In this document: positions 1 to 50,655 of the stretch, piece by piece | Layout: every line of letters starts with the position of its first letter | Position numbering within the stretch: position 1 is the first letter of the stretch | IMG/VR virus record: IMGVR_UViG_3300027260_000002 | Origin: a virus | Taxonomy: Duplodnaviria > Heunggongvirae > Uroviricota > Caudoviricetes | Strand: one strand, 5' to 3' | DNA: 64,000 bases | Notes under the pieces: generated by a model | Told to the model about the DNA's origin: nothing | Database searches by the model: none | Seen by the model: only the letters and a program-made list of their open reading frames with translations | Translations under genes and position numbers: made by a program

Positions 1-1552
1 CACCTACATAGCCGATAACATCGCCAGCATTAACTCGATCGCCTTTGCTATATCCCTTTAGTTTACTTAAGTGTGCGTACTTTGTTGTATATCCGTCGGC
101 ATGTTTTAGCTGTACAGCCATACCAAAACCTGCACTTCCGCCATCTCCACTTCTTCTTTCACTGTATACAACTTCACCGTCGGCTGTTGCGTAAATGGGA
201 GCTCCCATCGGAGCGAAGATATCCATACCTTGGTGGCGGCGTGTTCCGCCTGCTCTAGATTGCCCTAAACCTGGACCTGACCACTTACCGTTTGGAACAG
301 GATCTTTAAAGTTAGCAGCAAAATCTCCCATCGGTCCGCCAGACGGAGCTCCAACTCTTTCTACTCCCGTTGCAACGGGAGCTCCCGTTGCATTATTTCC
401 AGAAGATGGTTGGCTGCTCGAAGGTGATGAAGAAGTAGGAGAATAATTTGGCGCGCCTTCATCAGCAGGTGCAGATAAAAATCCAACTGCTCCGCCAATA
501 GCAGCACCAACTGGACCTGCTATTGCTCCTCCTACTGCAGCTCCAATAACCGTTCTTCCTAAACGAGCAGAGCCAGAACTCGGTTGTGATGGTGTAGCTT
601 GATTTGGCGTTGATTGTGTATTAACAACAGGCGTAGCATCTGCTTTATTCGGTTCGCTTGGCGCGACTTGAGCTGGAGCTTCTACAGTGTTCGGATCAGA
701 AGGTTGAAGATTTGACGATCCAGGTCCAGTTGGAAGAGATGCGGCTGAAGGCTTAGTAGAGCTAGTCGAAGAGCTGCCTGTAAAAGCATCGAGCCCATCA
801 GCAATAGTTCCAGCGACACCACTTACAAAATTCCAAACTCCTTTTACGCCATCGACAAGAGATTTAAATGCTTCTTGGACTGGTTCGAACTGCGCCGCTA
901 TTAGACCGCCTACAAGTAAAGCGGTAGCCATTGCCGCAGTATTATCTTTACTGGCGTCTTCGGTCTTTACTTCTTGTGCTGGAGATGCATCAGAAGGAGT
1001 TGCTTCGATAGCCATTTCTTTGGCCATCGATATATTTCTAGCAGCTATCTTTTTTTGATTATCAAGTTTCTGCTTCAGATAACCATCAATTGTAGCCAAC
1101 TTTTCTATCATCGTTACGATAGGAGAATTGATCTTAATATTGACCGGCATCTTCGCGCCGTCTGGTTTTTTGACATTCGATTTTGCGGCTTGTCCGATAG
1201 TACCCATTGCAGCGGTAATAGCAGGAGCAGCCGAAGCCTTTTCAGCTTCTAGTTTTTCTAAAACACCGTTGATAACTTTTTGAAGAGAATCGTTAACAGC
1301 ATCGCGAGTCTTCTTATTGATCCATTTTCCTTGATTAAGATCAAAAACATATTCTTCTCCTGCCAACGAAACAGGAGGTTTACTCGAGTCGATTCTGACT
1401 CTAAGTTTTTTATATTCGGTTGTCGATTCAGAAGTTAAAGAGTTGAGTAAAGTAAACAGTGATTCAGGTGCGCGCACCTTAGTTTTCTTATCTAACCAAC
1501 CTTCTGGCGTTTTAATGAAAGTCTGTCCGCCTATCGTGACTGGCTCTGCCAT
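1..1552 (-). CDS. Tape-measure/hub-associated virion protein with C-terminal M23 (LytM-like) peptidase domain; truncated by window edge
   Basis: Not in the ORF track because it runs off the edge. My translation from the ATG at 1552 (TAATG overlap with the upstream gene) stays open to base 2: MAEPVTIGGQTFIK..., a P/S/A-rich linker, then HQGMDIFAPMGAPIYATADGEVV...GMAVQLKHADGYTTKYAHLSK...GDRVNAGDVIGYVG. HxxxD is at 221-235 and YAHL at 68-79. The HxH motif would lie outside the window. Confidence 0.85.
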   Translation of the reverse strand, partial: MAEPVTIGGQTFIKTPEGWLDKKTKVRAPESLFTLLNSLTSESTTEYKKLRVRIDSSKPPVSLAGEEYVFDLNQGKWINKKTRDAVNDSLQKVINGVLEKLEAEKASAAPAITAAMGTIGQAAKSNVKKPDGAKMPVNIKINSPIVTMIEKLATIDGYLKQKLDNQKKIAARNISMAKEMAIEATPSDASPAQEVKTEDASKDNTAAMATALLVGGLIAAQFEPVQEAFKSLVDGVKGVWNFVSGVAGTIADGLDAFTGSSSTSSTKPSAASLPTGPGSSNLQPSDPNTVEAPAQVAPSEPNKADATPVVNTQSTPNQATPSQPSSGSARLGRTVIGAAVGGAIAGPVGAAIGGAVGFLSAPADEGAPNYSPTSSSPSSSQPSSGNNATGAPVATGVERVGAPSGGPMGDFAANFKDPVPNGKWSGPGLGQSRAGGTRRHQGMDIFAPMGAPIYATADGEVVYSERRSGDGGSAGFGMAVQLKHADGYTTKYAHLSKLKGYSKGDRVNAGDVIGYVG

Positions 1553-39893: not shown

Positions 39894-42800
39894 ATGGCAA
39901 CTCCAAATAATTTTCGCGTTAAGAACGGCTTAACTGCCGCAAATGGTGTAACGGTTACTACAGGAAACGTAGTAATTTCGAATGGTCAGCTCGTAATTAA
40001 TGGCACTGCCATTAACTCGACTAGCATCAGTCAATCTGCAAACAATGCATACGCTAACGGCGTGAACTATGCAGACGGTAAAGCCTCAGATGCTTACGGT
40101 AATGCCGTAGCAGTCGCGACAGGCTCATCGACAAATGCATATAATAATGCTGTTGCCTTCGCTGCGAATGCCGACAATCTCACAACTGGAACGCTTTCTC
40201 TGAATCGTCTTCCTGCGACAGTGAACGTATCTGTTGCGCTGAATGTTACAAACACTGTTAACATTTCAACAAGTAACTTAACAGTTTCACAAGCGAATGA
40301 TGTTGCCACTTTGACCGGAACACAGCTCGCAATCACTGATAGTTTGACTGAAACCGGGAACACCTATTACGCCGAGATATCTCATGATGAGTTGATTACA
40401 TCGAAGACATATGTTGTCGCTAATGTAACCTATGCAGATTACGGACAGATGTCACGAACAGGCATGTTTGCGGTTGTAGGTTTAAACACGACTAACAATT
40501 CGATCTATGTTCGAGGTGTCACAGTCAATACCTCGGTGATCGCAATCGGAAATACTACAGTATCCAGCTTCATCAACTCTACCGCTTTTTCTGGTAACGG
40601 CGCATCACTTACTTCTGTAAATGCTGCTACAGTTGGTGGCAACTCTGCTTCTGATCTTCGAACATATGCAGAAACGTATGCATCGAATGCCACGAATATT
40701 ACTTCAGGTACTGTGAATTCTGCACGTCTTCCATCAGCGAATGATACGACAGCGGGCGCAGTCATTCTTGTTAACTCAGTAACAAACACTTCTATTACCG
40801 CAGCAGCTTCTGCCAACTCGGTAAAAACTGCTTATGATGCTGCGATCGCCGCCAATACGGCTGGAGGAACTGCAGCAGCAACGGCTTATAGTAACGGTGT
40901 AACGTATACTGATAATAAGGCAGCAAACGCATACTCTAACGCTATTGCTATCGCAGCGAATGCCACGAATCTGACTTCTGGTACAGTAAACATTGCTCGT
41001 ATTCCAACAGTCGACGCAGTCAATAACACTTCGATTACACTGATTCCAGTGGCTAATAATGTGAAGACTGCTTATGACGCTGCTATTACTGCAAATACAA
41101 ATGCCGCTTCTGCTCTTGCAAATGCTGCCACAGCATATACGAATGCTATCGCAATTGCTGCGAATGCAACCAATCTGACTTCTGGTACAGTTAACGCCGC
41201 GCGCCTTCCATCAGCAAATGCTACTGTAGCAGGCGCAACACTTCTTGTCGATTCAGTATCGAATACTTCGCCGACTGCTGCAGCTTCTGCCAACTCTGTC
41301 AAGACAGCTTATGATGCAGCGATTGATGCTAATACTCGTGCAACTAGCGCTCAGACCGCAGCAACTTCAGCATATTCAAACGCGGTAACTTACACAGATA
41401 CGAAGATCGGAACAGCAAATACGGCAATGGTCGCGAATGCGGGAGCTGCATATACCAATGCAATTGCCATTGCTGCCAATGCGACCAATCTCACTTCTGG
41501 TACTGTAGCACTTGCTAGACTTCCAACAGTTGATGCGATCAATAATACTTCGATTACATTGATTCCAGTAGCAAATAACGTGAAGACTGCATATGATGCG
41601 GCTATCACTGCCAATACAAACGCTCAAACAGCACTCACTGCCGCAGGTTCTGCATATAGTAACGGTGTCACATATACTGATACGAAGATTGGAACTGCGA
41701 ATACTGCAATGGTAGCCAACGCTGCCGCCGCTTATACGAATGCTATCGCATTTGCAGCGAATGCTTCGAATGCAAACAACGGCACTCTTGCCGAAGCACG
41801 TCTTCCATATCGTATGGATCAAAATCTGAGAACAACAGATTCTCCAACTTTTGCGAATGGCTCGTTTACTGGTTCAGTGTCAGTCGGTGGAAGCCTTACA
41901 ATTACTGGTAACCTGATTTCAACTAACGTACAAACTCTTTCTGTTGCCGATCCTCTGATTAAATTAGCTGTGAATAACCCGAGCGACTTGCTTTGGATTG
42001 GATTCACTGGTCACTATAGTGGATCAGGTAATACAACAAATCATGCTGGTCTTGTTCGTAGTCCAGATACAAAAGAATTCATCCTCATGTCGACATATGG
42101 AGATGAAACGGCTGTTGCAAATAATAATACGATCAACGTCGCCGACGCATCGTTTTCGTATGCAAACTTGCAAGTCAGCTTATTAAAAGCTGGTAATGCC
42201 ACGGTATTCTCTACGATCAATTCTACGGCATTCAGTCAAACTGCTAACAATGCGACGAATCTTGGTGGACAAGCTGCAGCTTATTATACCGATGCTACAA
42301 ATATCAGTACAGGCACACTTCCTTTTGCAAGATTGCCTTCGTTGTTTATTGGAACAACTGCAATTCAGTCTACAAGTGCCGCCCAAGCAGTAAGCGGTAT
42401 CACTACACTTGCCGCTGGTAACACTACGATTACTGGAAACATTAGCGTTACGAGCGTTGGTAGTTTTGATAGAATAACTACTGCTAATAATGGTTCTGGA
42501 ACAAATATTGGCATCGGTGATGACGCGTGGTTCGGTGACATTAATCAGGCCGATACTGTCTCTATTCGCGGCAATCAATCTGCTAACAACGGTTATATCG
42601 TATTTGGTAATGCTGATAGCACCACTAAACTTGGTAGAGCTGGAACTGGAGCGCTTACTTACAACGGCGCATTCAGTGTTACAGGCGGACTAACTACACT
42701 GTCAGCAAACCTTGTGATGGCAAACAACAACATCACGAATCCAACTCTGACAGGTTACACCGAATCTGAAGTCTCGAATACAGCTGTCACAGGAACATAC

Positions 42801-43088
42801 ACTCTTAACTGTGTTGCTTCTAACTTCTGGGATCTTACACTTACTGGAAATACAACCATCTCTCCAACAGGTGTTCCACCGGCTACAAGAATGTGGGCAG
42901 GAACGATCGCCGCGAAGCAAGATGCAACAGGAGGTCGTACGATCACATGGCCTACAGGATCGAAGTATCCTGGAGGAGTTGCTCCTCCTGCAACGACAAC
43001 TGCGAATGCTATCGACATCTGGTCACTTATGACTTATGACGGCGGTACTTCTTGGATTGTTTCTCTGACGGTGAAGGGCGCCGCATAA
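39894..43088 (+). CDS. Long tail-fibre-like protein with ABAB internal repeats
   Basis: N-terminal NFRVKNGL; repeats ATN.TSGTV..AR.P...NTS.....AN.VKTAYDAA (fibre-repeat-like); C-terminal QDATGGRTITWP....YPGG..P..T..AN.ID...L.TYDGG..W. Confidence 0.78.
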   Translation: MATPNNFRVKNGLTAANGVTVTTGNVVISNGQLVINGTAINSTSISQSANNAYANGVNYADGKASDAYGNAVAVATGSSTNAYNNAVAFAANADNLTTGTLSLNRLPATVNVSVALNVTNTVNISTSNLTVSQANDVATLTGTQLAITDSLTETGNTYYAEISHDELITSKTYVVANVTYADYGQMSRTGMFAVVGLNTTNNSIYVRGVTVNTSVIAIGNTTVSSFINSTAFSGNGASLTSVNAATVGGNSASDLRTYAETYASNATNITSGTVNSARLPSANDTTAGAVILVNSVTNTSITAAASANSVKTAYDAAIAANTAGGTAAATAYSNGVTYTDNKAANAYSNAIAIAANATNLTSGTVNIARIPTVDAVNNTSITLIPVANNVKTAYDAAITANTNAASALANAATAYTNAIAIAANATNLTSGTVNAARLPSANATVAGATLLVDSVSNTSPTAAASANSVKTAYDAAIDANTRATSAQTAATSAYSNAVTYTDTKIGTANTAMVANAGAAYTNAIAIAANATNLTSGTVALARLPTVDAINNTSITLIPVANNVKTAYDAAITANTNAQTALTAAGSAYSNGVTYTDTKIGTANTAMVANAAAAYTNAIAFAANASNANNGTLAEARLPYRMDQNLRTTDSPTFANGSFTGSVSVGGSLTITGNLISTNVQTLSVADPLIKLAVNNPSDLLWIGFTGHYSGSGNTTNHAGLVRSPDTKEFILMSTYGDETAVANNNTINVADASFSYANLQVSLLKAGNATVFSTINSTAFSQTANNATNLGGQAAAYYTDATNISTGTLPFARLPSLFIGTTAIQSTSAAQAVSGITTLAAGNTTITGNISVTSVGSFDRITTANNGSGTNIGIGDDAWFGDINQADTVSIRGNQSANNGYIVFGNADSTTKLGRAGTGALTYNGAFSVTGGLTTLSANLVMANNNITNPTLTGYTESEVSNTAVTGTYTLNCVASNFWDLTLTGNTTISPTGVPPATRMWAGTIAAKQDATGGRTITWPTGSKYPGGVAPPATTTANAIDIWSLMTYDGGTSWIVSLTVKGAA
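40689..41810 (+). repeat. Four alternating (A-B-A-B) coding repeats plus a degenerate fifth start
   Basis: Units begin at about 40689, 40962, 41166 and 41481. A units read ARLPSA...AAASANSVKTAYD; B units read AR(I/L)PTVDA.NNTSITLIPVANNVKTAYD. Confidence 0.8.
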
Positions 43089-44968
43089 TGAGTATTGGTG
43101 GTGGTTCAAAGTTTACATTAGAGAAAACGTGGCGTGGAGCTGGAACTGGAACGACTAAGTTTAACAGTCCAGGAAACATCGCGATTCCTTATGGTAGAAA
43201 CAGCGTTCTTGTTTCTGGCCGAGGTGGCACAGGAACTGCACTCGTTCCTGGTCCTGGAACCGGCAACTTTAACATTGTAGCAGGTAATGCCACTGGAACG
43301 TTTAACGTAATTCCTGGTAATGCCACTGGCACTTTCAATATCGTACCTGGTAATGCGACTGGTACTTTCAACATCGTGCCCGGAAATATTGCCAACTACA
43401 ACATTATCTTTCCTCAGACCGGTACATTCAACATCATATTCCCCGGAACCGGTGTGTATAACATCATTCCTGGTCCTGGAACTGGCACCTTTAACATTGT
43501 GCCAGGAAATTCCACTGGTACGTTTAACATCGTTCCAGGAAATGCGACCGGTACGTTTAACAAAGTTCCTGGCACTGGCGTTAGTTTCAATATCGTTCCA
43601 GGTAATGCGACTGGTACATTTAACATTGTAGCTGGTAATGCCACTGGTACTTTCAATATCGTACCAGGAAATATTGCTAACTACAACATCATTTTCCCAG
43701 GAACTGGCACCTTTAACAAAGTTCCAGGTAATATCTCTGGTTACAACATCATTTTCCCAGGAACAGGTACGTTTAACATCGTTGCTGGAACAGGAACAGG
43801 TACGTTTAATAAAGTTCCTGGTCCTGGAACTGGCACTTTTAATATTGTGCCAGGAAATTCCACTGGTACGTTTAACGTTGTTCCAGGCAACGTGTCAGGA
43901 TATAACGTCGTTCCAGGTAACGTGGCAGGATATAACGTCGTTCCAGGTAACGTGGTAGGTTATAATGTCGTGCCAGGTACCGGCACAGGCAATTATAATG
44001 CTACTCCGGGCAATAAAGCTACCAATGCATTTGTCAGTCCAAAATATGGATATACACCGGCTTTTTATAATGCTCCATCTCCTGGGCCTCAGAACTTTAA
44101 CGCGCCTTCGAATGGTCCTGCAAACTTTAATGCTCCTTCAAATGGTCCAGCAAACTTCAATGCGGCTAGCAACGGCCCAGCAAACTTCAATGCGGCGAGT
44201 AATGGTCCTGCAAACTTTAACGCTGCAACGAACGGTCCTCAGAATTTCAATGCACCGACTAATGGCCCTCAAAACTTTAACCCTGCTACCAACGGTCCTC
44301 AAAACTTCAACGTAGCAAACGGTCCAGCAAACTACAATGCACCTACTAACGGTCCTCAAAACTTCAACGTAGCAAACGGTCCAGCAAACTACAATGCTCC
44401 GACTGGAGGTCCTCAAAACTTTAATGCACCTACAAATGGTCCTCAGAATTTCAATCCTGCTACCAACGGTCCACAAAACTTTAATGCACCAACCAATGGT
44501 CCTCAGAACTTTAACCCTGCGACTAACGGGCCTGCAAACTTTAATCCAGCTACCAATGGTCCTCAAAACTTCAATGCACCGACTAATGGTCCACAGAACT
44601 TTAACGTAGCAAACGGTCCACAAAACTTTAACGTAGCAAACGGTCCAGCAAACTACAATGCACCTACTAACGGTCCACAAAACTTTAATCCTGCTACCAA
44701 CGGTCCACAAAACTTCAATCCTGCAAACAATGGGCCTCAGAACTTTAACCCTGCTACCAACGGTCCTCAGAACTTTAATACACCAACTCCAGCTGTTCCT
44801 GGAAATCCATCGAATACGCTTGGTATTACTTTCCCAGGATCAAATGCTGGGGGCACACCTGCACCAGTAATAAATAGTCAGACGGCAAGTTACTATGCTT
44901 ATCCCGACGGAGCTACGCATTCGGTAACTGTAGCGCCCGGAGGATATATAGATATTACCATTGAATAA
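43088..44968 (+). CDS. Fibre-associated Gly/Asn/Pro-rich protein: small split domain enclosing two mirror-related repeat arrays
   Basis: True start is probably ATG 43088 (TAATG overlap with the fibre gene). N-terminal TTKFNSPGNIAIPYG..SV.VSGRGG and C-terminal GITFPG..AGG...VTVAPGGYIDITIE look like two halves of one Gly-rich adhesin-type domain. Confidence 0.85.
   Translation: MSIGGGSKFTLEKTWRGAGTGTTKFNSPGNIAIPYGRNSVLVSGRGGTGTALVPGPGTGNFNIVAGNATGTFNVIPGNATGTFNIVPGNATGTFNIVPGNIANYNIIFPQTGTFNIIFPGTGVYNIIPGPGTGTFNIVPGNSTGTFNIVPGNATGTFNKVPGTGVSFNIVPGNATGTFNIVAGNATGTFNIVPGNIANYNIIFPGTGTFNKVPGNISGYNIIFPGTGTFNIVAGTGTGTFNKVPGPGTGTFNIVPGNSTGTFNVVPGNVSGYNVVPGNVAGYNVVPGNVVGYNVVPGTGTGNYNATPGNKATNAFVSPKYGYTPAFYNAPSPGPQNFNAPSNGPANFNAPSNGPANFNAASNGPANFNAASNGPANFNAATNGPQNFNAPTNGPQNFNPATNGPQNFNVANGPANYNAPTNGPQNFNVANGPANYNAPTGGPQNFNAPTNGPQNFNPATNGPQNFNAPTNGPQNFNPATNGPANFNPATNGPQNFNAPTNGPQNFNVANGPQNFNVANGPANYNAPTNGPQNFNPATNGPQNFNPANNGPQNFNPATNGPQNFNTPTPAVPGNPSNTLGITFPGSNAGGTPAPVINSQTASYYAYPDGATHSVTVAPGGYIDITIE
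43268..43999 (+). repeat. Array A: 24 units of 10-11 aa, consensus GT(F/Y)NIVPGNAT
   Basis: Counted by hand from the first FN core (TTT 43268) to the last YN core (TAT 43994). Confidence 0.92.
44096..44779 (+). repeat. Array B: 24 units of 9-10 aa, consensus GP(Q/A)N(F/Y)N(AP/PA)TN
   Basis: Counted by hand from TTT 44096 to TTT 44774. One extra YNAPSP half-unit sits in the hinge. Confidence 0.92.
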
Positions 44969-44989: not shown

Positions 44990-45583
44990 ATGCCATATAA
45001 TATCCCTAAGTATGGGAAACAATTGAACTGCTTCGCTGTATGGACAGGAGGATTTACTCCTGAAGAAGTCGATATGATTATCGACTTAGAAAAACTTCAA
45101 CAATTTGAAAAAGGTCAAGTTGGGCTCGATAAGAATGCTCCAGCTCCTGCTGAAACGCGAGATTCAGATATCTCATGGATACACCATGATCAACACAGCG
45201 ATTGGTTATTTCAGCGAATGTCAGGAATCGTTTCTGTCGTAAACTACGATAATTTTATGTATGACATCGAAGGCGTCGAAGCTTTTCAATACACAAAGTA
45301 CGGACCAAATCAACACTATACGTGGCACTGGGATGTCGAGTTCGGTTGGCAGAAATATATAAGAAAGATATCTGCATCTCTACTTCTTTCGGATCCAAGT
45401 GAATATGAAGGTGGAGAGTTAGAGATTGTAAACAACGGAAACTTTGAAGACAAAGTTTCGTTTAAACCGAATAAAGGTGATATCGTATTCTTCGCTTCAT
45501 GGATGCCGCATCGAGTGAAGCCAATTACGTCAGGAACTCGTAAGAGTCTTGTAGCATGGGTAATGGGTGAAAGAGAATGTTGA
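44990..45583 (+). CDS. 2OG-Fe(II) oxygenase, prolyl-4-hydroxylase/PKHD-like
   Basis: FQYTKY...HYTWHWD (HxD)...RKIS.S.LLSDP.EYEGGEL...GD..FF.S..PHRV.P.T.G.R.SLV.W (distal His and 2OG-binding Arg). Confidence 0.9.
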   Translation: MPYNIPKYGKQLNCFAVWTGGFTPEEVDMIIDLEKLQQFEKGQVGLDKNAPAPAETRDSDISWIHHDQHSDWLFQRMSGIVSVVNYDNFMYDIEGVEAFQYTKYGPNQHYTWHWDVEFGWQKYIRKISASLLLSDPSEYEGGELEIVNNGNFEDKVSFKPNKGDIVFFASWMPHRVKPITSGTRKSLVAWVMGEREC

Positions 45584-46314
45584 GTTGGAATCCTTTTAAG
45601 AAGAAACCTATCATTGAGTTTTATTGCCATCGTGATGATGTAGCTACATTGCCGCAACCAAAACCTGCAGCTAAACATATACCCGATTGGTATAAGAGAA
45701 TTCCTCCTCTTATTACAGATGGGAATAATGATCGTGACTGGTCTGGATCACACAGTTTTACTGCAAAAAAATGTATGCCAATGATAGACGCCATGTCATT
45801 AGGTTATGTTATTCCTCTTATCGGCGACTTGACAGTCAGATCAAATCACGATTGCAGTACGATTGAAGTGACATCTTCTCCACAGATCAACGTATGTGAG
45901 TTTCATGACATTCGACAACTGGGAGAAAGATCTGCTCCAGGATTTCCTGCGCCTCCTCTCAAGTTTGTCAATCCATGGATCGTAAAGACTGCTCCGGGTT
46001 GGTCTACTCTTTTCGTAGCACCGATTAATAACTTTGAAAGTCATTTTACTTGTCTGTCAGGATTAGTCGATACTGATACGTATCCAAAGGAAGTCAATTT
46101 CCCTGCAATCTGGCATACTCCAAATGCTGACGTACTTCTACCAGCTGGAACTCCATTGATAGTCGCAATTCCAATTAAGCGCGATGCTATCCCATCAAAG
46201 CCTACGGTAAGAGATATGAAAGAACCAGAACAACACTTGATCAATCTCATATCGAAGATGCAAAACACACGCCGAGGTGTATATACAAAAGAACTGAGAG
46301 TACCAAGAAAATGA
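45577..46314 (+). CDS. Conserved phage hypothetical protein (DUF6065-like, possibly dUTPase-like beta fold)
   Basis: P.PA.K.IPDWYK...T.KKC.P..DAM..GY.IP...KF.NPW..KT.PG.S.LF..P...SG.VDTD.Y...NFP...GTP....IP.KR. Confidence 0.65.
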   Translation: MLSWNPFKKKPIIEFYCHRDDVATLPQPKPAAKHIPDWYKRIPPLITDGNNDRDWSGSHSFTAKKCMPMIDAMSLGYVIPLIGDLTVRSNHDCSTIEVTSSPQINVCEFHDIRQLGERSAPGFPAPPLKFVNPWIVKTAPGWSTLFVAPINNFESHFTCLSGLVDTDTYPKEVNFPAIWHTPNADVLLPAGTPLIVAIPIKRDAIPSKPTVRDMKEPEQHLINLISKMQNTRRGVYTKELRVPRK

Positions 46315-47051
46315 AAGATCTGTTTTCTTTTTTAAAACCAAAGAAAGATATTCAATTCGTAGACACTAAAAAGTTATCTTATCATAACTTTTCTGTCGAA
46401 CGCGCCGTTGACGTTCCAACAAATACTCGTAAAGTCCAACAAGACAAGTATGGCAAACATCTGATGCCATACTGTCCTGGAATTTTAGATTATGCCCAAT
46501 TTGGGTATATCATTCCAGCTTGGGTAGACATTCATATCATGGCAAATAAAGCTGGCACTTCTTGGTATTTGGGTGATAGAGGCCCAAGAGGAGATCGTGG
46601 TTTTGACAATGGCGTGAAGATGGATGAAAAGTTTGTAGAAGGCGCATTTACTCCGATTGGAATTAATCCTACTGCAATCTTGTTTCCATCGCCTTGGAAA
46701 ATCTTTACACAAAAAAACATCAGCGCGTTGTTAATGCCTGCATTCTATCATTCTACTTTCCTTGAAGATTTATATGTAACCCCGGGTTTGGTAGATTATA
46801 AAAACTTTCATATCACAAACTTCATCTGTATGCCGAAGAGAGAATGTAATGTTCATATTAAGGCAGGAGATCCTTTGTTACACGTGATTCCTTTTCTCAA
46901 TAAGGATATCACTGCTTCTGTTGGTCCTGCTACTGATGAGATGATAGATAAAACTACAAATCTCATTCCTGGTGACGATAAGCAATACTATCGAAAGTTT
47001 ATGGGAGTGAAAAAGAAATTTAATATGCAAAAAGAAGAGAATAAACAATGA
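46311..47051 (+). CDS. Paralog of the preceding gene
   Basis: CPGI.DY...GYIIP.W...FPSPWKI.T....S.L..P...PG.VD...NF...GDPL..VIPF; same motif order as 45577-46314. Confidence 0.62.
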   Translation: MKDLFSFLKPKKDIQFVDTKKLSYHNFSVERAVDVPTNTRKVQQDKYGKHLMPYCPGILDYAQFGYIIPAWVDIHIMANKAGTSWYLGDRGPRGDRGFDNGVKMDEKFVEGAFTPIGINPTAILFPSPWKIFTQKNISALLMPAFYHSTFLEDLYVTPGLVDYKNFHITNFICMPKRECNVHIKAGDPLLHVIPFLNKDITASVGPATDEMIDKTTNLIPGDDKQYYRKFMGVKKKFNMQKEENKQ

Positions 47052-48070
47052 ACATTTTTGTTTCAGTATGCTCGTACCAAGATCCTTTACTTCCTCATAC
47101 TATCAAGAGTATGATGCAAACCAAATCAAATAGAAACAATGTAGTCTATTCGATCTTTGAACAGACGCGTTATGAGGATTCTTTGGCTTGTACAGAACCT
47201 GTACTCGTAAGCAGAGATGATGTCATCTATAAAAGAATCGATCCTGAATATTCCGATGGTTGTGTTTGGGCAAGATATATTAATATGCTAAACTTGACAA
47301 ACGAGTACGACTTCATCTATCAAGTTGACTCTCATATGTTACACGATCTCAATTGGGATCGCTCTCTCGTGGAAGATTATAAGAGAGCGATGGATATGGC
47401 TGGAACAAATAAAGTAATCATCACTGGATCATGCAAATCATTTTCAATAGAAGAAGTAGATGGCGAGATTAAAACTTATCCTCGTCATGATGAATATGAT
47501 GCTTGTCAAGTCAAGTACTACACTATCGATCCTTATAATTTTATTCCAGATGTTCACGGAGATCAGATTCCATCAACTGATATGCCTCGTCCGGCGTTTC
47601 ATATTATGGCCGGAAACTTCTTTACGCATACCGACTGGATCGATGAAGTCGGTTTAGATCCAAAGATCTTCTTTACAGGAGAAGAAATCATGATGACGAT
47701 GATGTCATATGCTGCTGGATATAAGATGTTTCATCATAGTAAGATAGTATCATATCATCTTGAGAACACCGGGAATTGGCATACGAAAACTCCTCCAGAA
47801 GATGCAAAAGCTGCTCGTAGAAGAGAAATTCTTGCTGAAATTGGTGTGTGGAGATGGAAGCAATATCTCGAAGCGTGTAGAGAAGATCTTCTTCTTGAGT
47901 TTCACAAGGAATTCGGAGTAGATTTTATTAATTTGGAAATTGAAGATCGCGCAAAGACTTATAGTCTTGATGTCATTCCTGGTAAAGTTGATATCCTTGC
48001 TATTTCGAAGAAACCAAAGAAGAAAGTAAAATTGCCTAAAACTCTTTTTATGAGTGAAGACGAAGAATGA
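47048..48070 (+). CDS. GT60 / Gnt1-like GlcNAc-transferase (Pfam GlcNAc family)
   Basis: IFVSVCSYQD (cf. IFVSIASYRD), GCVWAR, YQVDSHM...NWD..L (DSH motif), AGNFF...EVGLDPKIFFTGEEI...GY.MFH. Confidence 0.82.
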   Translation: MNIFVSVCSYQDPLLPHTIKSMMQTKSNRNNVVYSIFEQTRYEDSLACTEPVLVSRDDVIYKRIDPEYSDGCVWARYINMLNLTNEYDFIYQVDSHMLHDLNWDRSLVEDYKRAMDMAGTNKVIITGSCKSFSIEEVDGEIKTYPRHDEYDACQVKYYTIDPYNFIPDVHGDQIPSTDMPRPAFHIMAGNFFTHTDWIDEVGLDPKIFFTGEEIMMTMMSYAAGYKMFHHSKIVSYHLENTGNWHTKTPPEDAKAARRREILAEIGVWRWKQYLEACREDLLLEFHKEFGVDFINLEIEDRAKTYSLDVIPGKVDILAISKKPKKKVKLPKTLFMSEDEE

Positions 48071-48847: not shown

Positions 48848-49392
48848 ATATCGTAACTACTACAATTAATGACTTATCAGAAGTCGATTTCGATGATCTA
48901 TACGAGAGATCAAGAGATGCTATCGATGTAAATTGGCCAGCAGATTCTTCTCTTACGGGTGAAGAAAGAAAGGCTAAAATCATAGAAATCATTACGAGTG
49001 GGATTAATAATGAGTGGCCCGGTTTAAATGCTCATAGCCCAAATGATGAGTATTTTATGGCCAAATCTGTAGATACTGATACTAATAAAGTCATGGCACT
49101 AGTATGCGGATATATTATAGATGGAGATACTCATGATGGAAGACATTCACTTGCAGCTGCAGATGAAAATGGTTCAAGAAATTGGCTTTATTCAGAACAG
49201 ACTCGTGCCTCACAAAATCAATATCAAAGAGATAATGGTATAACTAAATTGCTTTTTAGAAATATTCCTACAAATTCTGTTATGCATAAAATTATTAAAC
49301 GCCGAGCAAATGCCGGAGATTATGAAGTTATAGAAGAAACTTTAGGATTTGGAGAAGGTTTTACAAATATAAAAGTATTACTAAATCTATGA
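48844..49392 (+). CDS. Hypothetical protein (weak possibility of a GNAT-like fold)
   Basis: 182 aa with ATGA overlaps on both sides. No firm motif. Confidence 0.6.
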   Translation: MNIVTTTINDLSEVDFDDLYERSRDAIDVNWPADSSLTGEERKAKIIEIITSGINNEWPGLNAHSPNDEYFMAKSVDTDTNKVMALVCGYIIDGDTHDGRHSLAAADENGSRNWLYSEQTRASQNQYQRDNGITKLLFRNIPTNSVMHKIIKRRANAGDYEVIEETLGFGEGFTNIKVLLNL

Positions 49393-50093
49393 AGTTTCTA
49401 TTGAATGTAGGTGCCGAGAAAGCTGGCACTACTTGGTTATATGATTATTTTCGAAACCACCCAGAATTCTATGATATGGGAAAAGAACTCAATATCATTC
49501 AGAGAGATGATTTGGTTCCTATCTTAGAAGACGTAGACGAATATAGAAAAGATATAGAGTCTTTCTTTCGAACAGTTTCAAGTGTAAATCAAGTGACAGG
49601 CGACTTCACACACTATGAAGGCTCGAGCGAAAACGTTTTTCGACTCGTAAAGAATGGCTTACTAAAATATGATATCGAAGTAGTGCCAGTTTATATTATG
49701 CGAGATCCTATTCGCAGAGCTTGGTCCGCTTGGAATTCTCTCGGAGGAGGTAAGATTTCAACTAAATCGACAGCTTCACAGTTTGTGATGACTAATTTTA
49801 TGTCATGCAAATATAGAGAAACGATAGAAGCTCTAGACAATGTTTTTGCCAATCCGCTCTATTTCTTCTATGAAGATTTTTTTACTCAAGACAATATCAA
49901 TAAGATATGCGATGAGTTGCAGATTTCTCATCTGCCGGCAGAATGCGACATCAAAATCAATGCTTCTCCGTATAAGAAAATACCAGACGCTTTCTTGAAA
50001 ACTTTTGGCAAATCTTCGAAGAACGTGACTGCAGTTAAATATATTTTTGAAAGATTTGAAAATGTACCATGGAAACTCGAGGATTATTCATAG
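49389..50093 (+). CDS. PAPS-dependent sulfotransferase family protein
   Basis: 5'-PSB loop VGAEKAGTTWL....HP...KE; 3'-PB motif IMRDPIRRAWS. Confidence 0.82.
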   Translation: MKFLLNVGAEKAGTTWLYDYFRNHPEFYDMGKELNIIQRDDLVPILEDVDEYRKDIESFFRTVSSVNQVTGDFTHYEGSSENVFRLVKNGLLKYDIEVVPVYIMRDPIRRAWSAWNSLGGGKISTKSTASQFVMTNFMSCKYRETIEALDNVFANPLYFFYEDFFTQDNINKICDELQISHLPAECDIKINASPYKKIPDAFLKTFGKSSKNVTAVKYIFERFENVPWKLEDYS

Positions 50094-50655
50094 ATCTACT
50101 GTCGACGAAGATGTTCGCCTAAGATTGCTTGAAGGTTTAAATAGTCCTACGCAAATGCATTACTTTGATCGTAACGAGGCTATGAACGCAACAGACGAAG
50201 CTGTACTCGAGTTTCTCGATAGAGAACAGTTTAACTGTAATAAAACTCACATCGAATATTGGTATCAGTCTCAACAAGGTTCTGGAGATCTGTGGCCTCA
50301 CGTGGACTTTAATGAGAAGCTTCGTTATAGAATTGATGCTGGAGAACAATTAAAACCAGAAGAACTGATGTCTCCAATCACCATCGCATGTTATTTAGAG
50401 GCAACTGATCTTGAAGGCGGAGAATTCTGCATCTCTGAAAGAAGTTGGTTAGACTATGAAAAAGAACTCAACGATCCAGTAGATTTAAAAGAAGAGTTGC
50501 TCAAATATACGCACGAATCTTTTCAACCCTTCGAAGGCGCAGTGTTATACTTCGAGGGCAGTCGATACTATCATTGGATCAACGAAGTCAAACGAGGATC
50601 TCGTAAAAGTATATTGATTAATTTCTGGGATGAGTGTAGCCTTAAGTCCACTTAG
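50062..50655 (+). CDS. 2OG-Fe(II) oxygenase-like protein
   Basis: WPHVD (HxD), I.CYL...LEGGEF, YYHWI..V..G.R.S..INFW. ATG 50062 preferred over TTG 50047. Confidence 0.78.
   Translation: MYHGNSRIIHRSTVDEDVRLRLLEGLNSPTQMHYFDRNEAMNATDEAVLEFLDREQFNCNKTHIEYWYQSQQGSGDLWPHVDFNEKLRYRIDAGEQLKPEELMSPITIACYLEATDLEGGEFCISERSWLDYEKELNDPVDLKEELLKYTHESFQPFEGAVLYFEGSRYYHWINEVKRGSRKSILINFWDECSLKST

What the first reader, a model, noticed from the sequence alone, without database searches (positions are those of the whole stretch)
43088..44968. Mirror-symmetric twin repeat arrays (24 + 24 units) with unit-by-unit covariation: an encoded fold-back hairpin fibre
Seen in sequence: array A (GTFNIVPGNAT-like) and array B (GPQNFNAPTN-like) have unrelated consensus but exactly 24 (F/Y)N cores each, separated by a ~33-aa hinge (43997-44095). 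Their variants match in reverse order. The four IIFP units of A (5, 6, 14, 16) face the four shortened VAN units of B (19, 18, 10, 8), so i+j=24 in every case. All three Tyr cores of B (9, 11, 20) face Tyr cores of A (16, 14, 5), i+j=25. Both GPGT units of A face APTN units, and five of six GNAT units face PA(T/N)N units. At a fixed register the 4-of-23 match alone is 1/8855 by chance, though units are not independent. The flanks look like two halves of one small Gly-rich domain. Inference: the chain runs out along A, turns at the hinge and returns along B as an antiparallel zipper, so repeat gain or loss must be matched in both arms. The T4 gp37 needle is an established out-and-back fibre, but I know of no described family with paired mirror repeat arrays.
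Basis: partly seen in the sequence, partly recalled or inferred. Interest (0 to 1): 0.92.

Follow-up and report, generated by a model that had tools for sequence, protein, structure and literature searches.

The report
Fold-back phage protein with mirrored repeat arms
A gene beside a tail-fibre gene of an uncultured T4-like phage encodes a protein whose two different repeat arrays match unit for unit in reverse order, here and in every relative examined, which is strong evolutionary evidence that the chain runs out, turns and zips back on itself in a way not described for any known protein family.

Summary
ORF 43088-44968 (626 aa) has a conserved N flank, arm A (24 units of 10-11 aa), a 24-aa hinge, arm B (24 units of 9-10 aa plus a terminal unit) and a conserved C flank. 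The four IIFP units at A5, 6, 14 and 16 mirror the four 9-aa VAN units, counted back from the C flank.

The rule holds in all 17 distinct complete relatives from viral and metagenome contigs. They show eight different non-empty patterns, and 56 of 56 special units are matched. Six of these proteins were tested only after the rule was set. A second pairing also holds: 11-aa GNxTG units face PA-type units in 49 of 59 cases. Arm lengths track each other over 136-286 aa. A distant subfamily gains and loses repeats in lockstep (r = 0.99).

AlphaFold places both flanks in one small beta-sandwich but cannot fold the arms. A trimer prediction gave no answer. The Tyr-Tyr match is not conserved. Two relatives have a B arm three units short, possibly through assembly collapse.

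No Pfam, NCBIfam or PDB family fits. This scan has already noted the same mirror rule in related proteins on other genomes. Verdict: antiparallel, base-anchored arm pairing is strongly supported. The atomic fold and oligomeric state remain unknown.

The parts
43088..44968 (+). Whole gene: 626 aa plus stop. The ATG at 43088 overlaps the TAA stop of the upstream fibre gene (TAATG).
   Evidence: Relatives start MSIGGGSKF or MGIGGGSKF at the equivalent ATG.
43088..43267 (+). N flank (aa 1-60): the conserved half of the base domain, with the motif F.LEKTW...TFN.PGN..IPYG...V.GRGG.
   Evidence: Conserved in all family members. AF2 pLDDT is above 90 for aa about 20-50.
43268..43993 (+). Arm A, units A1-A23 (aa 61-302). 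Units are 10-11 aa, with the FNIVPGNATGT-type consensus.
   Evidence: AF2 draws one short strand per unit at low confidence.
43397..43456 (+). IIFP-type units A5 and A6.
   Evidence: They face VAN units B19 and B18.
43682..43711 (+). IIFP-type unit A14.
   Evidence: It faces B10.
43742..43771 (+). IIFP-type unit A16.
   Evidence: It faces B8.
43994..44065 (+). Unit A24 plus the hinge (aa 303-326), containing the conserved SPK(Y/F)GY turn motif.
   Evidence: The hinge motif recurs in relatives and always sits in the middle of the inter-flank region.
44066..44773 (+). Arm B, units B0-B23 (aa 327-562). Units are 9-10 aa, with the FNAPTNGPQN-type consensus.
44306..44332 (+). 9-aa VAN unit B8.
44363..44389 (+). 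9-aa VAN unit B10.
44600..44653 (+). 9-aa VAN units B18 and B19.
44774..44803 (+). Terminal unit FNTPTPAVPG, the anchor from which arm B is counted back.
   Evidence: Conserved as [FY]N[TA]PTPAV in all close relatives.
44804..44965 (+). C flank (aa 573-626): the second half of the base domain, with the motif LGI.FPGS..GG..AP...YY.YPD....V.V.PGGY..I.
   Evidence: Conserved across the family. AF2 pLDDT is about 90. VIA-align matches span 20..626 as a single small beta-sandwich.
39894..43088 (+). Upstream 1064-aa tail-fibre protein. Its C-terminal domain directly precedes this gene in nearly all related loci.
   Evidence: Phage_fiber_2 and phrog_9017 hits. Synteny.
44990..48070 (+). Conserved downstream cassette: a prolyl-hydroxylase-type 2OG-Fe(II) oxygenase, two DUF6065-like genes and a PF11397 GlcNAc transferase. 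These are possible modifiers of the Pro-rich arms.
   Evidence: Pfam hits. Conserved order in about 35 loci.

Best explanation
The gene encodes a tail-fibre-module protein with a hairpin topology.

- The N- and C-terminal flanks (about 55 aa each) fold together into one small beta-sandwich base.
- The roughly 510 residues between them form two chemically different repeat arms. Arm A runs away from the base, a short conserved hinge (SPK[YF]GY) reverses the chain, and arm B runs back.
- Unit A(k) therefore sits level with, and most likely packs against, unit B(T-k), where T is the index of the last B unit. The register is set at the base, and slack is absorbed at the hinge.

Rungs come in matched types:

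- a 10-aa aromatic IIFP/IIYP unit pairs with a 9-aa VAN unit;
- an 11-aa GNxTG unit pairs with a PA-type unit;
- other A units pair with AP-type units.

A change in one arm is therefore kept only with the complementary change at the mirror position, much like compensatory changes in an RNA stem.

Shown: the mirror covariation, the matched arm lengths, the co-folding of the flanks in the model, the conserved gene context, and the high variability of the arms compared with neighbouring genes.

Inferred:

- direct A-B contact;
- a cross-beta-like ladder of about 4.8 A per rung, about 11-12 nm here and 6-13 nm across relatives;
- docking of the base on the C-terminal domain of the upstream fibre protein;
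- a role as a length-tunable distal fibre or adhesin element, possibly hydroxylated and glycosylated by the downstream enzymes.
For: **Mirror rule.**
- In the window, IIFP units sit at A5, 6, 14, 16 and VAN units at B19, 18, 10, 8.
- The rule holds in 11 distinct close relatives from viral contigs. Patterns are {5,6,14,16}, {5,6,13,15,17,19}, {5,6,13,15,17}, {5,6,10,15,17}, {5,6,7,11,15,17}, {9,10} and none.
- It also holds in 6 further distinct proteins from metagenome contigs, examined after the rule was fixed. These add the new patterns {7,9,11,13} and {5,12,14,16}.

**Register control.**
- IIFP-type units face VAN units 42/42 at the anchored register, against 0-14/42 at shifts of 1-3 units.
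- GNxTG units face PA-type units 49/59, against 16/131 for other A units.
- Mutual information is 1.18 bits, against at most 0.57 at other shifts.

**Arm lengths and hinge position.**
- Arm lengths correlate at r=0.998 over 136-286 aa.
- The hinge is central in single-hinge members whose inter-flank region ranges from 147 to 587 aa.
- In the distant four-Cys subfamily (21 proteins), the N-flank-to-Cys1 and Cys2-to-Cys3 lengths vary by about 30 aa in lockstep (r=0.994, difference 70.6 +/- 1.6 aa). Tip length is uncorrelated with either.

**Flanks as one domain.**
- AF2 pLDDT is above 90 in both flanks, in two independent models.
- Structural matches of 62-81 residues span model residues 20..626.

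**No nucleic-acid explanation.** There is no inverted DNA repeat between the arms.

**Context.**
- The gene start overlaps the fibre gene stop (TAATG).
- Gene order is conserved in about 35 loci. Downstream neighbours are mostly 85-99% identical in the close relatives (65-85% in L010), while this protein is 52-93% identical.
Against: - No structural model supports the arms. AF2 gives pLDDT 25-57 for arm A and below 45 for arm B. Its low-confidence drawing makes arm A a stand-alone solenoid.
- Two of the 17 relatives (L046, L049) have a B arm about 30 aa (three units) shorter than arm A. Both lack IIFP/VAN landmarks, have runs of near-identical units and lie on contigs of 2.5-3.2 kb. Assembly collapse is possible but unproven.
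- The IIFP-type class was widened after the fact to include two Asn-containing units at A6 of L001 and L022. With the strict definition, 40 of the 42 VAN units in the first set face an aromatic unit.
- The sequences are related, so counts of pairs overstate the number of independent events. At least 8 changes of state are required.
- Covariation shows that A(k) and B(T-k) share an environment, not that they touch.
Confidence: 0.85

Rival explanations
1. The arms do not touch each other. Both run, in opposite directions, along a third partner such as the shaft of the upstream fibre protein or other copies of the same protein. Each arm adapts rung by rung to the same local features of that partner.
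For: Covariation only shows a shared environment at equal height. The gene is coupled to a fibre gene whose C-terminal domain is co-conserved. Phage fibres are usually oligomers.
Against: The rung types change often (eight non-empty patterns), which would require a third component to change in step each time. The arm lengths range over 13-27 units while the adjacent fibre C-terminal domain keeps its size. No partner was tested.
Confidence: 0.09
2. Arms A and B are two independent beta-solenoids (two units per coil) that stack or lie side by side. Matched length is needed only so that both span the same distance between base and tip.
For: The low-confidence AF2 model draws arm A as a generic solenoid. 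The best matches are CsgA fibril, antifreeze beta-helix, LRR and phage 7-7-1 tail fibre, at Z 7-8. IIFP units often occur at alternate positions (13, 15, 17, 19), which fits a two-unit period.
Against: This does not explain strict one-to-one covariation at both odd and even positions (5,6; 9,10; 5,6,7), nor the second GNxTG:PA pairing. All Z scores are below the level the tool treats as meaningful, and the model confidence is about 50.
Confidence: 0.04
3. The mirror pattern is a by-product of chance, of higher-order repeats within each array, of a DNA-level palindrome or of metagenome assembly, with no protein-level constraint.
For: Both arrays have internal higher-order repeats. Within the window alone the degrees of freedom are few. 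A many-class mutual-information test on the window alone was not significant.
Against: The rule holds in 17 distinct proteins from independent assemblies, with eight non-empty patterns. That includes an out-of-sample set. Shifted registers fail. There is no inverted DNA repeat, and the two arm consensus sequences are unrelated.
Confidence: 0.01

Closest known systems
Needle domain of the phage T4 long tail fibre tip (gp37 C-terminal region)
   Same: It is a phage fibre element in which each chain runs out to a distal tip and returns, so N- and C-proximal segments lie side by side (established knowledge, Bartual et al. 2010, recalled from memory; iron sites along the needle are cited in PMC6957217). 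It belongs to a tail-fibre gene module.
   Different: gp37 has no tandem repeat arrays, is held by seven His-coordinated iron ions in an obligate trimer, and shows no sequence similarity. Here there are no His-x-His motifs in the arms and no PDB sequence match. The arms are two unrelated 9-11-aa repeat families with rung-by-rung covariation.
Gp38 adhesin of T2/S16-type Straboviridae phages
   Same: It is encoded directly downstream of the distal fibre gene. It has conserved termini flanking a repetitive Gly-rich, highly variable middle. It is a monomeric adhesin at the fibre tip (PMC12032242). There are weak structural matches to PP01 and S16 gp38 (Z 6.2-6.5).
   Different: gp38 has five Gly-rich motifs forming a three-layer polyglycine-II sandwich with four hypervariable loops. 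It does not have two long mirrored arrays. The structural matches come from model regions with pLDDT about 50 and are no better than generic solenoids. There is no sequence similarity.
SMC/Rad50-type antiparallel coiled-coil arms
   Same: The topology is the same. N- and C-terminal segments form one globular domain, and two long arms of matched length pair antiparallel and reverse at a hinge. Interruptions must be matched in both arms (textbook knowledge).
   Different: Those arms are alpha-helical heptad coiled coils of ATPases. Here no helix is predicted, the units are 9-11-aa Asn/Pro/Gly-rich repeats, and the base is a roughly 90-aa beta-sandwich.
Narrow beta-solenoids with aromatic or Asn ladders (CsgA curli, insect and bacterial antifreeze beta-helices)
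   Same: They have short tandem units with a conserved aromatic-Asn core and Gly/Pro turns. They are the best, though weak, structural matches of arm A.
   Different: In those proteins one continuous array forms the whole solenoid. None is known to need a second, different array in reverse order.

Membership tests
T4 gp37-type fold-back needle | His-x-His iron-binding motifs spaced along the out-and-back segments | tested here: not met
   The only His in the translated protein lies in the C flank (ATHSV). There is none in either arm.
T4 gp37-type fold-back needle | Sequence or profile similarity to solved gp37 tips | tested here: not met
   A profile of 19 family members found no PDB chain at E<=1.
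T4 gp37-type fold-back needle | Obligate homotrimer | tested here: inconclusive
   A three-copy prediction of the 247-aa family member P0044 gave no verdict.
Gp38 adhesin (polyglycine-II sandwich) | Five conserved Gly-rich motifs alternating with four hypervariable segments | tested here: not met
   The sequence has 48 regular 9-11-aa units with an [FY]N core, not GRM/HVS alternation. The family definition is taken from PMC12032242.
Gp38 adhesin (polyglycine-II sandwich) | Fold similarity to S16 or PP01 gp38 | tested here: inconclusive
   Z 6.2-6.5 over about 95 residues of a region with pLDDT about 50, tied with many unrelated solenoids.
Gp38 adhesin (polyglycine-II sandwich) | Gene immediately downstream of the distal fibre gene | tested here: met
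   There is a TAATG overlap with the 1064-aa fibre gene, conserved in related loci. This is a positional analogy only.
Pentapeptide-repeat (Rfr) beta-helix | Uninterrupted 5-residue A(D/N)LXX periodicity and a Pfam pentapeptide match | tested here: not met
   There is no Pfam pentapeptide hit at E<=0.01. The 11-aa and 9-aa units break a 5-residue register. The only tblastn hits were 27% identity to Caulobacter phage genes annotated as pentapeptide repeat proteins.
Collagen-like fibre | Gly at every third residue | tested here: not met
   Gly falls at positions 6 and 10 of 11-aa units. There is no G-X-Y period.
SMC-like hairpin topology (analogy, not homology) | N and C termini form one domain, and antiparallel arms have matched length | tested here: met
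   AF2 and VIA-align place both flanks in one domain. Arm lengths are matched and mirror covariation is present.
SMC-like hairpin topology (analogy, not homology) | Alpha-helical coiled-coil arms and an ABC ATPase head | tested here: not met
   No helices are predicted and there is no ATPase domain.

The most novel reading that the evidence does not exclude
This would be a new protein architecture: a hetero-repeat ladder hairpin. Two unrelated tandem arrays in one chain pair rung by rung under a small 'pairing code' (IIFP:VAN, GNxTG:PA-type, others:AP-type). The protein would then evolve like an RNA stem, by compensated unit changes and matched gain or loss of rungs. That would give phages a fibre element whose length is tunable from about 13 to 27 rungs. 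The element may also be the dedicated substrate of a co-inherited prolyl-hydroxylase and GlcNAc-transferase cassette.
Probability: 0.55. Interest if true: 0.92.

Novelty: categorically new. Interest (0 to 1): 0.86.

Why it matters
Unit-by-unit compensatory evolution between two different repeat arrays in one protein has, to my knowledge, not been described. It offers three things:

- a natural, sequence-readable contact map for a fold that structure predictors cannot yet model;
- a system for studying how tandem repeats change copy number under a pairing constraint;
- a candidate modular scaffold of adjustable length.

For phage biology, it defines a widespread and highly variable component of the tail-fibre module of uncultured T4-like phages. 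No Pfam, NCBIfam or PDB family matches it and its one PHROG family has no assigned function. The linked modification cassette suggests the component may be glycosylated.

Tried and rejected
- **AF2 monomer of the window protein.** Run with a 40-sequence alignment. Only the flanks were confident; the arms had pLDDT 25-60.
- **AF2 of the 394-aa relative L023.** Run with a 19-sequence alignment. The result was the same, with arm B below 40.
- **Three-copy complex prediction of the 247-aa family member P0044.** No answer (score 0.00). This is neither support nor evidence against.
- **Foldseek against viral models.** Only meaningless matches (TM about 0.1).
- **VIA-align.** Generic beta-sandwich hits for the base and generic solenoid hits for arm A, all at Z 8 or below.
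- **Family searches.**
  - The Pfam DUF3224 hit (E 5e-6, no stretch passing on its own) was judged a repeat artefact.
  - NCBIfam gave nothing.
  - PDB gave nothing.
  - PHROGs gave only an unknown-function family.
- **Cultured phages.**
  - tblastn of the whole protein found only low-identity repeat hits.
  - tblastn of the N flank found nothing.
  - No DNA match was found.
- **Own genome.** No whole genome is held for this window.
- **Mutual-information test on the window alone.** With many unit classes it was uninformative.
- **DNA palindrome idea.** Rejected.
- **Tyr-Tyr covariation.** Rejected after comparison with relatives.
- **Literature searches.** No description of this family was found.
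Full report
**The gene.** ORF 43088-44968 (+) encodes 626 aa. Its ATG overlaps the TAA stop of a 1064-aa tail-fibre protein (TAATG). Relatives begin at the equivalent Met, so the upstream TTG at 43052 is not the start. The window carries a T4-type structural module: a gp6-like baseplate wedge and fibre proteins. Its terminase is about 55% identical to that of Synechococcus T4-like cyanophages. No cultured phage shares DNA with the region or has the N flank of this protein.

**Anatomy.** There are 50 [FY]N cores.
- One lies in the N flank.
- Cores 2-25 (aa 61-303) form arm A, with units of 10-11 aa and an FNIVPGNATGT-like consensus.
- The last A unit runs into a 24-aa hinge containing SPKYGY.
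- Cores 26-49 (aa 327-562) form arm B, with units of 9-10 aa and an FNAPTNGPQN-like consensus.
- Core 50 begins a terminal FNTPTPAVPG unit that leads into the C flank.

Counted from the flanks, the arms are also 24 and 24.

**The mirror pattern in the window.** IIFP units are at A5, 6, 14, 16 and 9-aa VAN units at B8, 10, 18, 19, so i+j=24 in all four cases. For random subsets this has probability 1/10626 at a fixed register and 26/10626 for any register and either orientation. Both arrays have internal higher-order repeats, so the window alone is suggestive rather than decisive. A many-class mutual-information test on the window alone was not significant. No inverted DNA repeat links the arms.

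**Close relatives.** A scan of viral contigs with a family alignment found 45 loci. Of these, 25 encode close relatives (52-93% identity, 394-685 aa), which collapse to 10 distinct proteins besides the window's.

I counted arm A forward from the N flank and arm B backward from the terminal unit. Counted this way, the IIFP/IIYP-type units and the VAN units occupy identical positions in every protein:

| Proteins | Positions |
|---|---|
| window, L001, L002 | {5,6,14,16} |
| L003, L007 | {5,6,13,15,17,19} |
| L008 | {5,6,13,15,17} |
| L022 | {5,6,10,15,17} |
| L010 | {5,6,7,11,15,17} |
| L011 | {9,10} |
| L021, L023 | none |

One caveat applies. At A6 of L001 and L022 the unit facing a VAN unit has Asn instead of the aromatic residue. 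I widened the class to include it after seeing this.

**Out-of-sample test.** With the rule fixed, I scanned metagenome contigs. This gave six further distinct complete proteins, and all obey the rule. They include two new patterns, {7,9,11,13} in L050 and {5,12,14,16} in L052 and L053. In total 56 of 56 special units are matched. There are eight distinct non-empty states plus the empty one. So at least eight changes in one arm were accompanied by the mirrored change in the other.

**Register control and a second pairing.**
- At the anchored register, IIFP-type units face VAN units 42/42. At shifts of 1-3 units the figure is 0-14/42.
- The 11-aa GNxTG units face PA-type B units 49/59, against 16/131 for other A units.
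- Mutual information between facing unit classes is 1.18 bits, against at most 0.57 at other shifts. It remains highest at shift 0 when IIFP and VAN units are removed.
- The rung lengths are 11+10, 10+10 and 10+9, so both halves of an IIFP:VAN rung are short.
- The Tyr-Tyr facing is not conserved.

**Arm lengths.**
- Arm lengths in residues correlate at r=0.998 over 136-286 aa in the first 11 proteins and at 0.96 in all 17.
- Two proteins, L046 and L049, have a B arm about 30 aa short. L046 is 96% identical in DNA to L021, apart from a 90-nt gap inside a region that repeats with a 90-nt period. Both lie on contigs of 2.5-3.2 kb.
- These may be assembly collapses, or real variants tolerated where units are uniform. 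I could not tell which.
- L010 and L048 differ by one unit between arms next to the hinge. This suggests that the register is set at the base and slack is taken up at the tip.

**The wider family.**
- Sequence searches found more than 200 proteins with the same two flanks. Full-length members range from about 200 to 660 aa in the protein searches (685 aa among the contig-derived relatives), and the middle varies from about 100 to about 590 aa.
- Many carry Cys-containing aromatic domains at the tip or within the arms.
- In 21 proteins of a four-Cys subfamily, the distance from N flank to Cys1 and the distance from Cys2 to Cys3 each vary by about 30 aa. Their difference stays 70.6 +/- 1.6 aa (r=0.994). 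The tip length (Cys1-Cys2) is uncorrelated with either.
- In a small clade (P0044, L033, L034) the arms have 5+5, 6+6 and about 6-7 each, by eye.
- In members with a single hinge, the hinge lies at the centre of the inter-flank region over a fourfold size range.

Matched gain and loss of units is therefore a property of the whole family.

**Structure prediction.**
- AF2 gives pLDDT above 90 for aa about 20-50 and 570-626 of the window protein, and for the equivalent parts of L023.
- With low-confidence stretches trimmed, VIA-align matches of 62-81 residues span model residues 20..626 and hit small beta-sandwich or jelly-roll domains at Z 5-6.
- The arms are not predicted with confidence. Arm A is drawn with one short strand per unit (pLDDT 50-57 in L023) and resembles generic solenoids at Z 8 or below. 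Arm B is modelled as coil.
- A three-copy prediction gave no verdict.

**Interpretation.** The simplest reading is a hairpin: a split base domain, arm A out, a hinge, and arm B back, with A(k) level with B(T-k). One-to-one covariation occurs at both odd and even positions. This argues for one A unit and one B unit per rung, rather than two independent two-units-per-coil solenoids.

Two atomic models fit the data:
- two single-layer sheets facing each other;
- two very narrow one-unit-per-turn coils packed side by side.

Both imply roughly 4.8 A per rung, which is an inference. Whether pairing is within one chain or between chains of an oligomer is open. So is the alternative that both arms follow a third partner.

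**Context and likely role.** The fibre C-terminal domain upstream is conserved in about 35 loci. So is a downstream cassette: a prolyl-hydroxylase-type 2OG oxygenase, two DUF6065-like genes and a PF11397 GlcNAc transferase. In the close relatives the downstream genes are mostly 85-99% identical (65-85% in L010), while this protein is 52-93% identical. It is thus a variable spot in a conserved setting, as expected of a host-contact element.

I infer a distal fibre or adhesin component whose reach is tuned by rung number. Its base probably docks on the fibre's C-terminal domain. Its Pro-rich arms may be hydroxylated and glycosylated. None of these functional steps is shown.

**Comparison with known systems.**
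- The T4 gp37 needle shares the out-and-back principle but not repeats, sequence or iron sites.
- gp38 adhesins share gene position and conserved termini around a variable Gly-rich middle, but have a different motif plan.
- SMC arms share the topology but are helical.

No Pfam, NCBIfam or PDB family matches, and literature searches found no description.

**Earlier notes of this scan.** Earlier AI notes report the same mirror rule in related proteins on other genomes. I treated these as leads only. All counts here are my own.

Noticed in passing
window 44990-48070: A prolyl-hydroxylase-type 2OG-Fe(II) oxygenase (PF13640), two DUF6065-like genes and a PF11397 (Skp1-type) GlcNAc transferase follow the repeat gene in the same order in about 35 related loci. 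This suggests a hydroxyproline-GlcNAc modification cassette acting on the Pro-rich arms.
   Followed up: partly
L046 and L049 (whole genes): These two relatives have a B arm three units (about 30 aa) shorter than arm A. L046 differs from L021 by a 90-nt gap within a 90-nt-period repeat. This could be either assembly collapse or a real unmatched deletion.
   Followed up: partly
P0002-P0022, P0008/P0009, P0023 and others (family members): Distant members carry 50-100-aa aromatic-rich domains, many with a Cys pair (CP.P ... C[TS]P), at the tip or within the arms. These are probably globular heads displayed at the end of the hairpin. The window's clade has only a 24-aa hinge.
   Followed up: partly
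P0029 and P0040: In these members the second arm is a direct-order copy of the first. In P0029 each arm has PG-type units followed by PPTYP-type units. In a fold-back this would still place PG-type units opposite P-rich units, which hints that heterotypic pairing is general. This was counted by eye only.
   Followed up: no
window 43160-43190 (aa 24-33): The N flank contains a unit-like stretch (KFNSPGNIAI) that AF2 models with high confidence as strand-turn-strand. The base domain may act as 'rung zero' that templates the ladder.
   Followed up: no
window 39894-43088: The upstream 1064-aa fibre protein has its own long internal repeats (the ...NAIAIAANATNLTSGTV.ARLP... modules recur several times). 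Its C-terminal roughly 110 aa match phrog_9017.
   Followed up: no
window 43320-43958 (+), 43414-43656 (-), 44138-44710 (-): Long alternative-frame and minus-strand ORFs inside the arrays are by-products of the repeats, not genes.
   Followed up: no
window 49389-50655: A sulfotransferase-like ORF and a second 2OG-Fe(II) oxygenase lie a little further downstream. More modification enzymes may belong to the same late-gene block.
   Followed up: no
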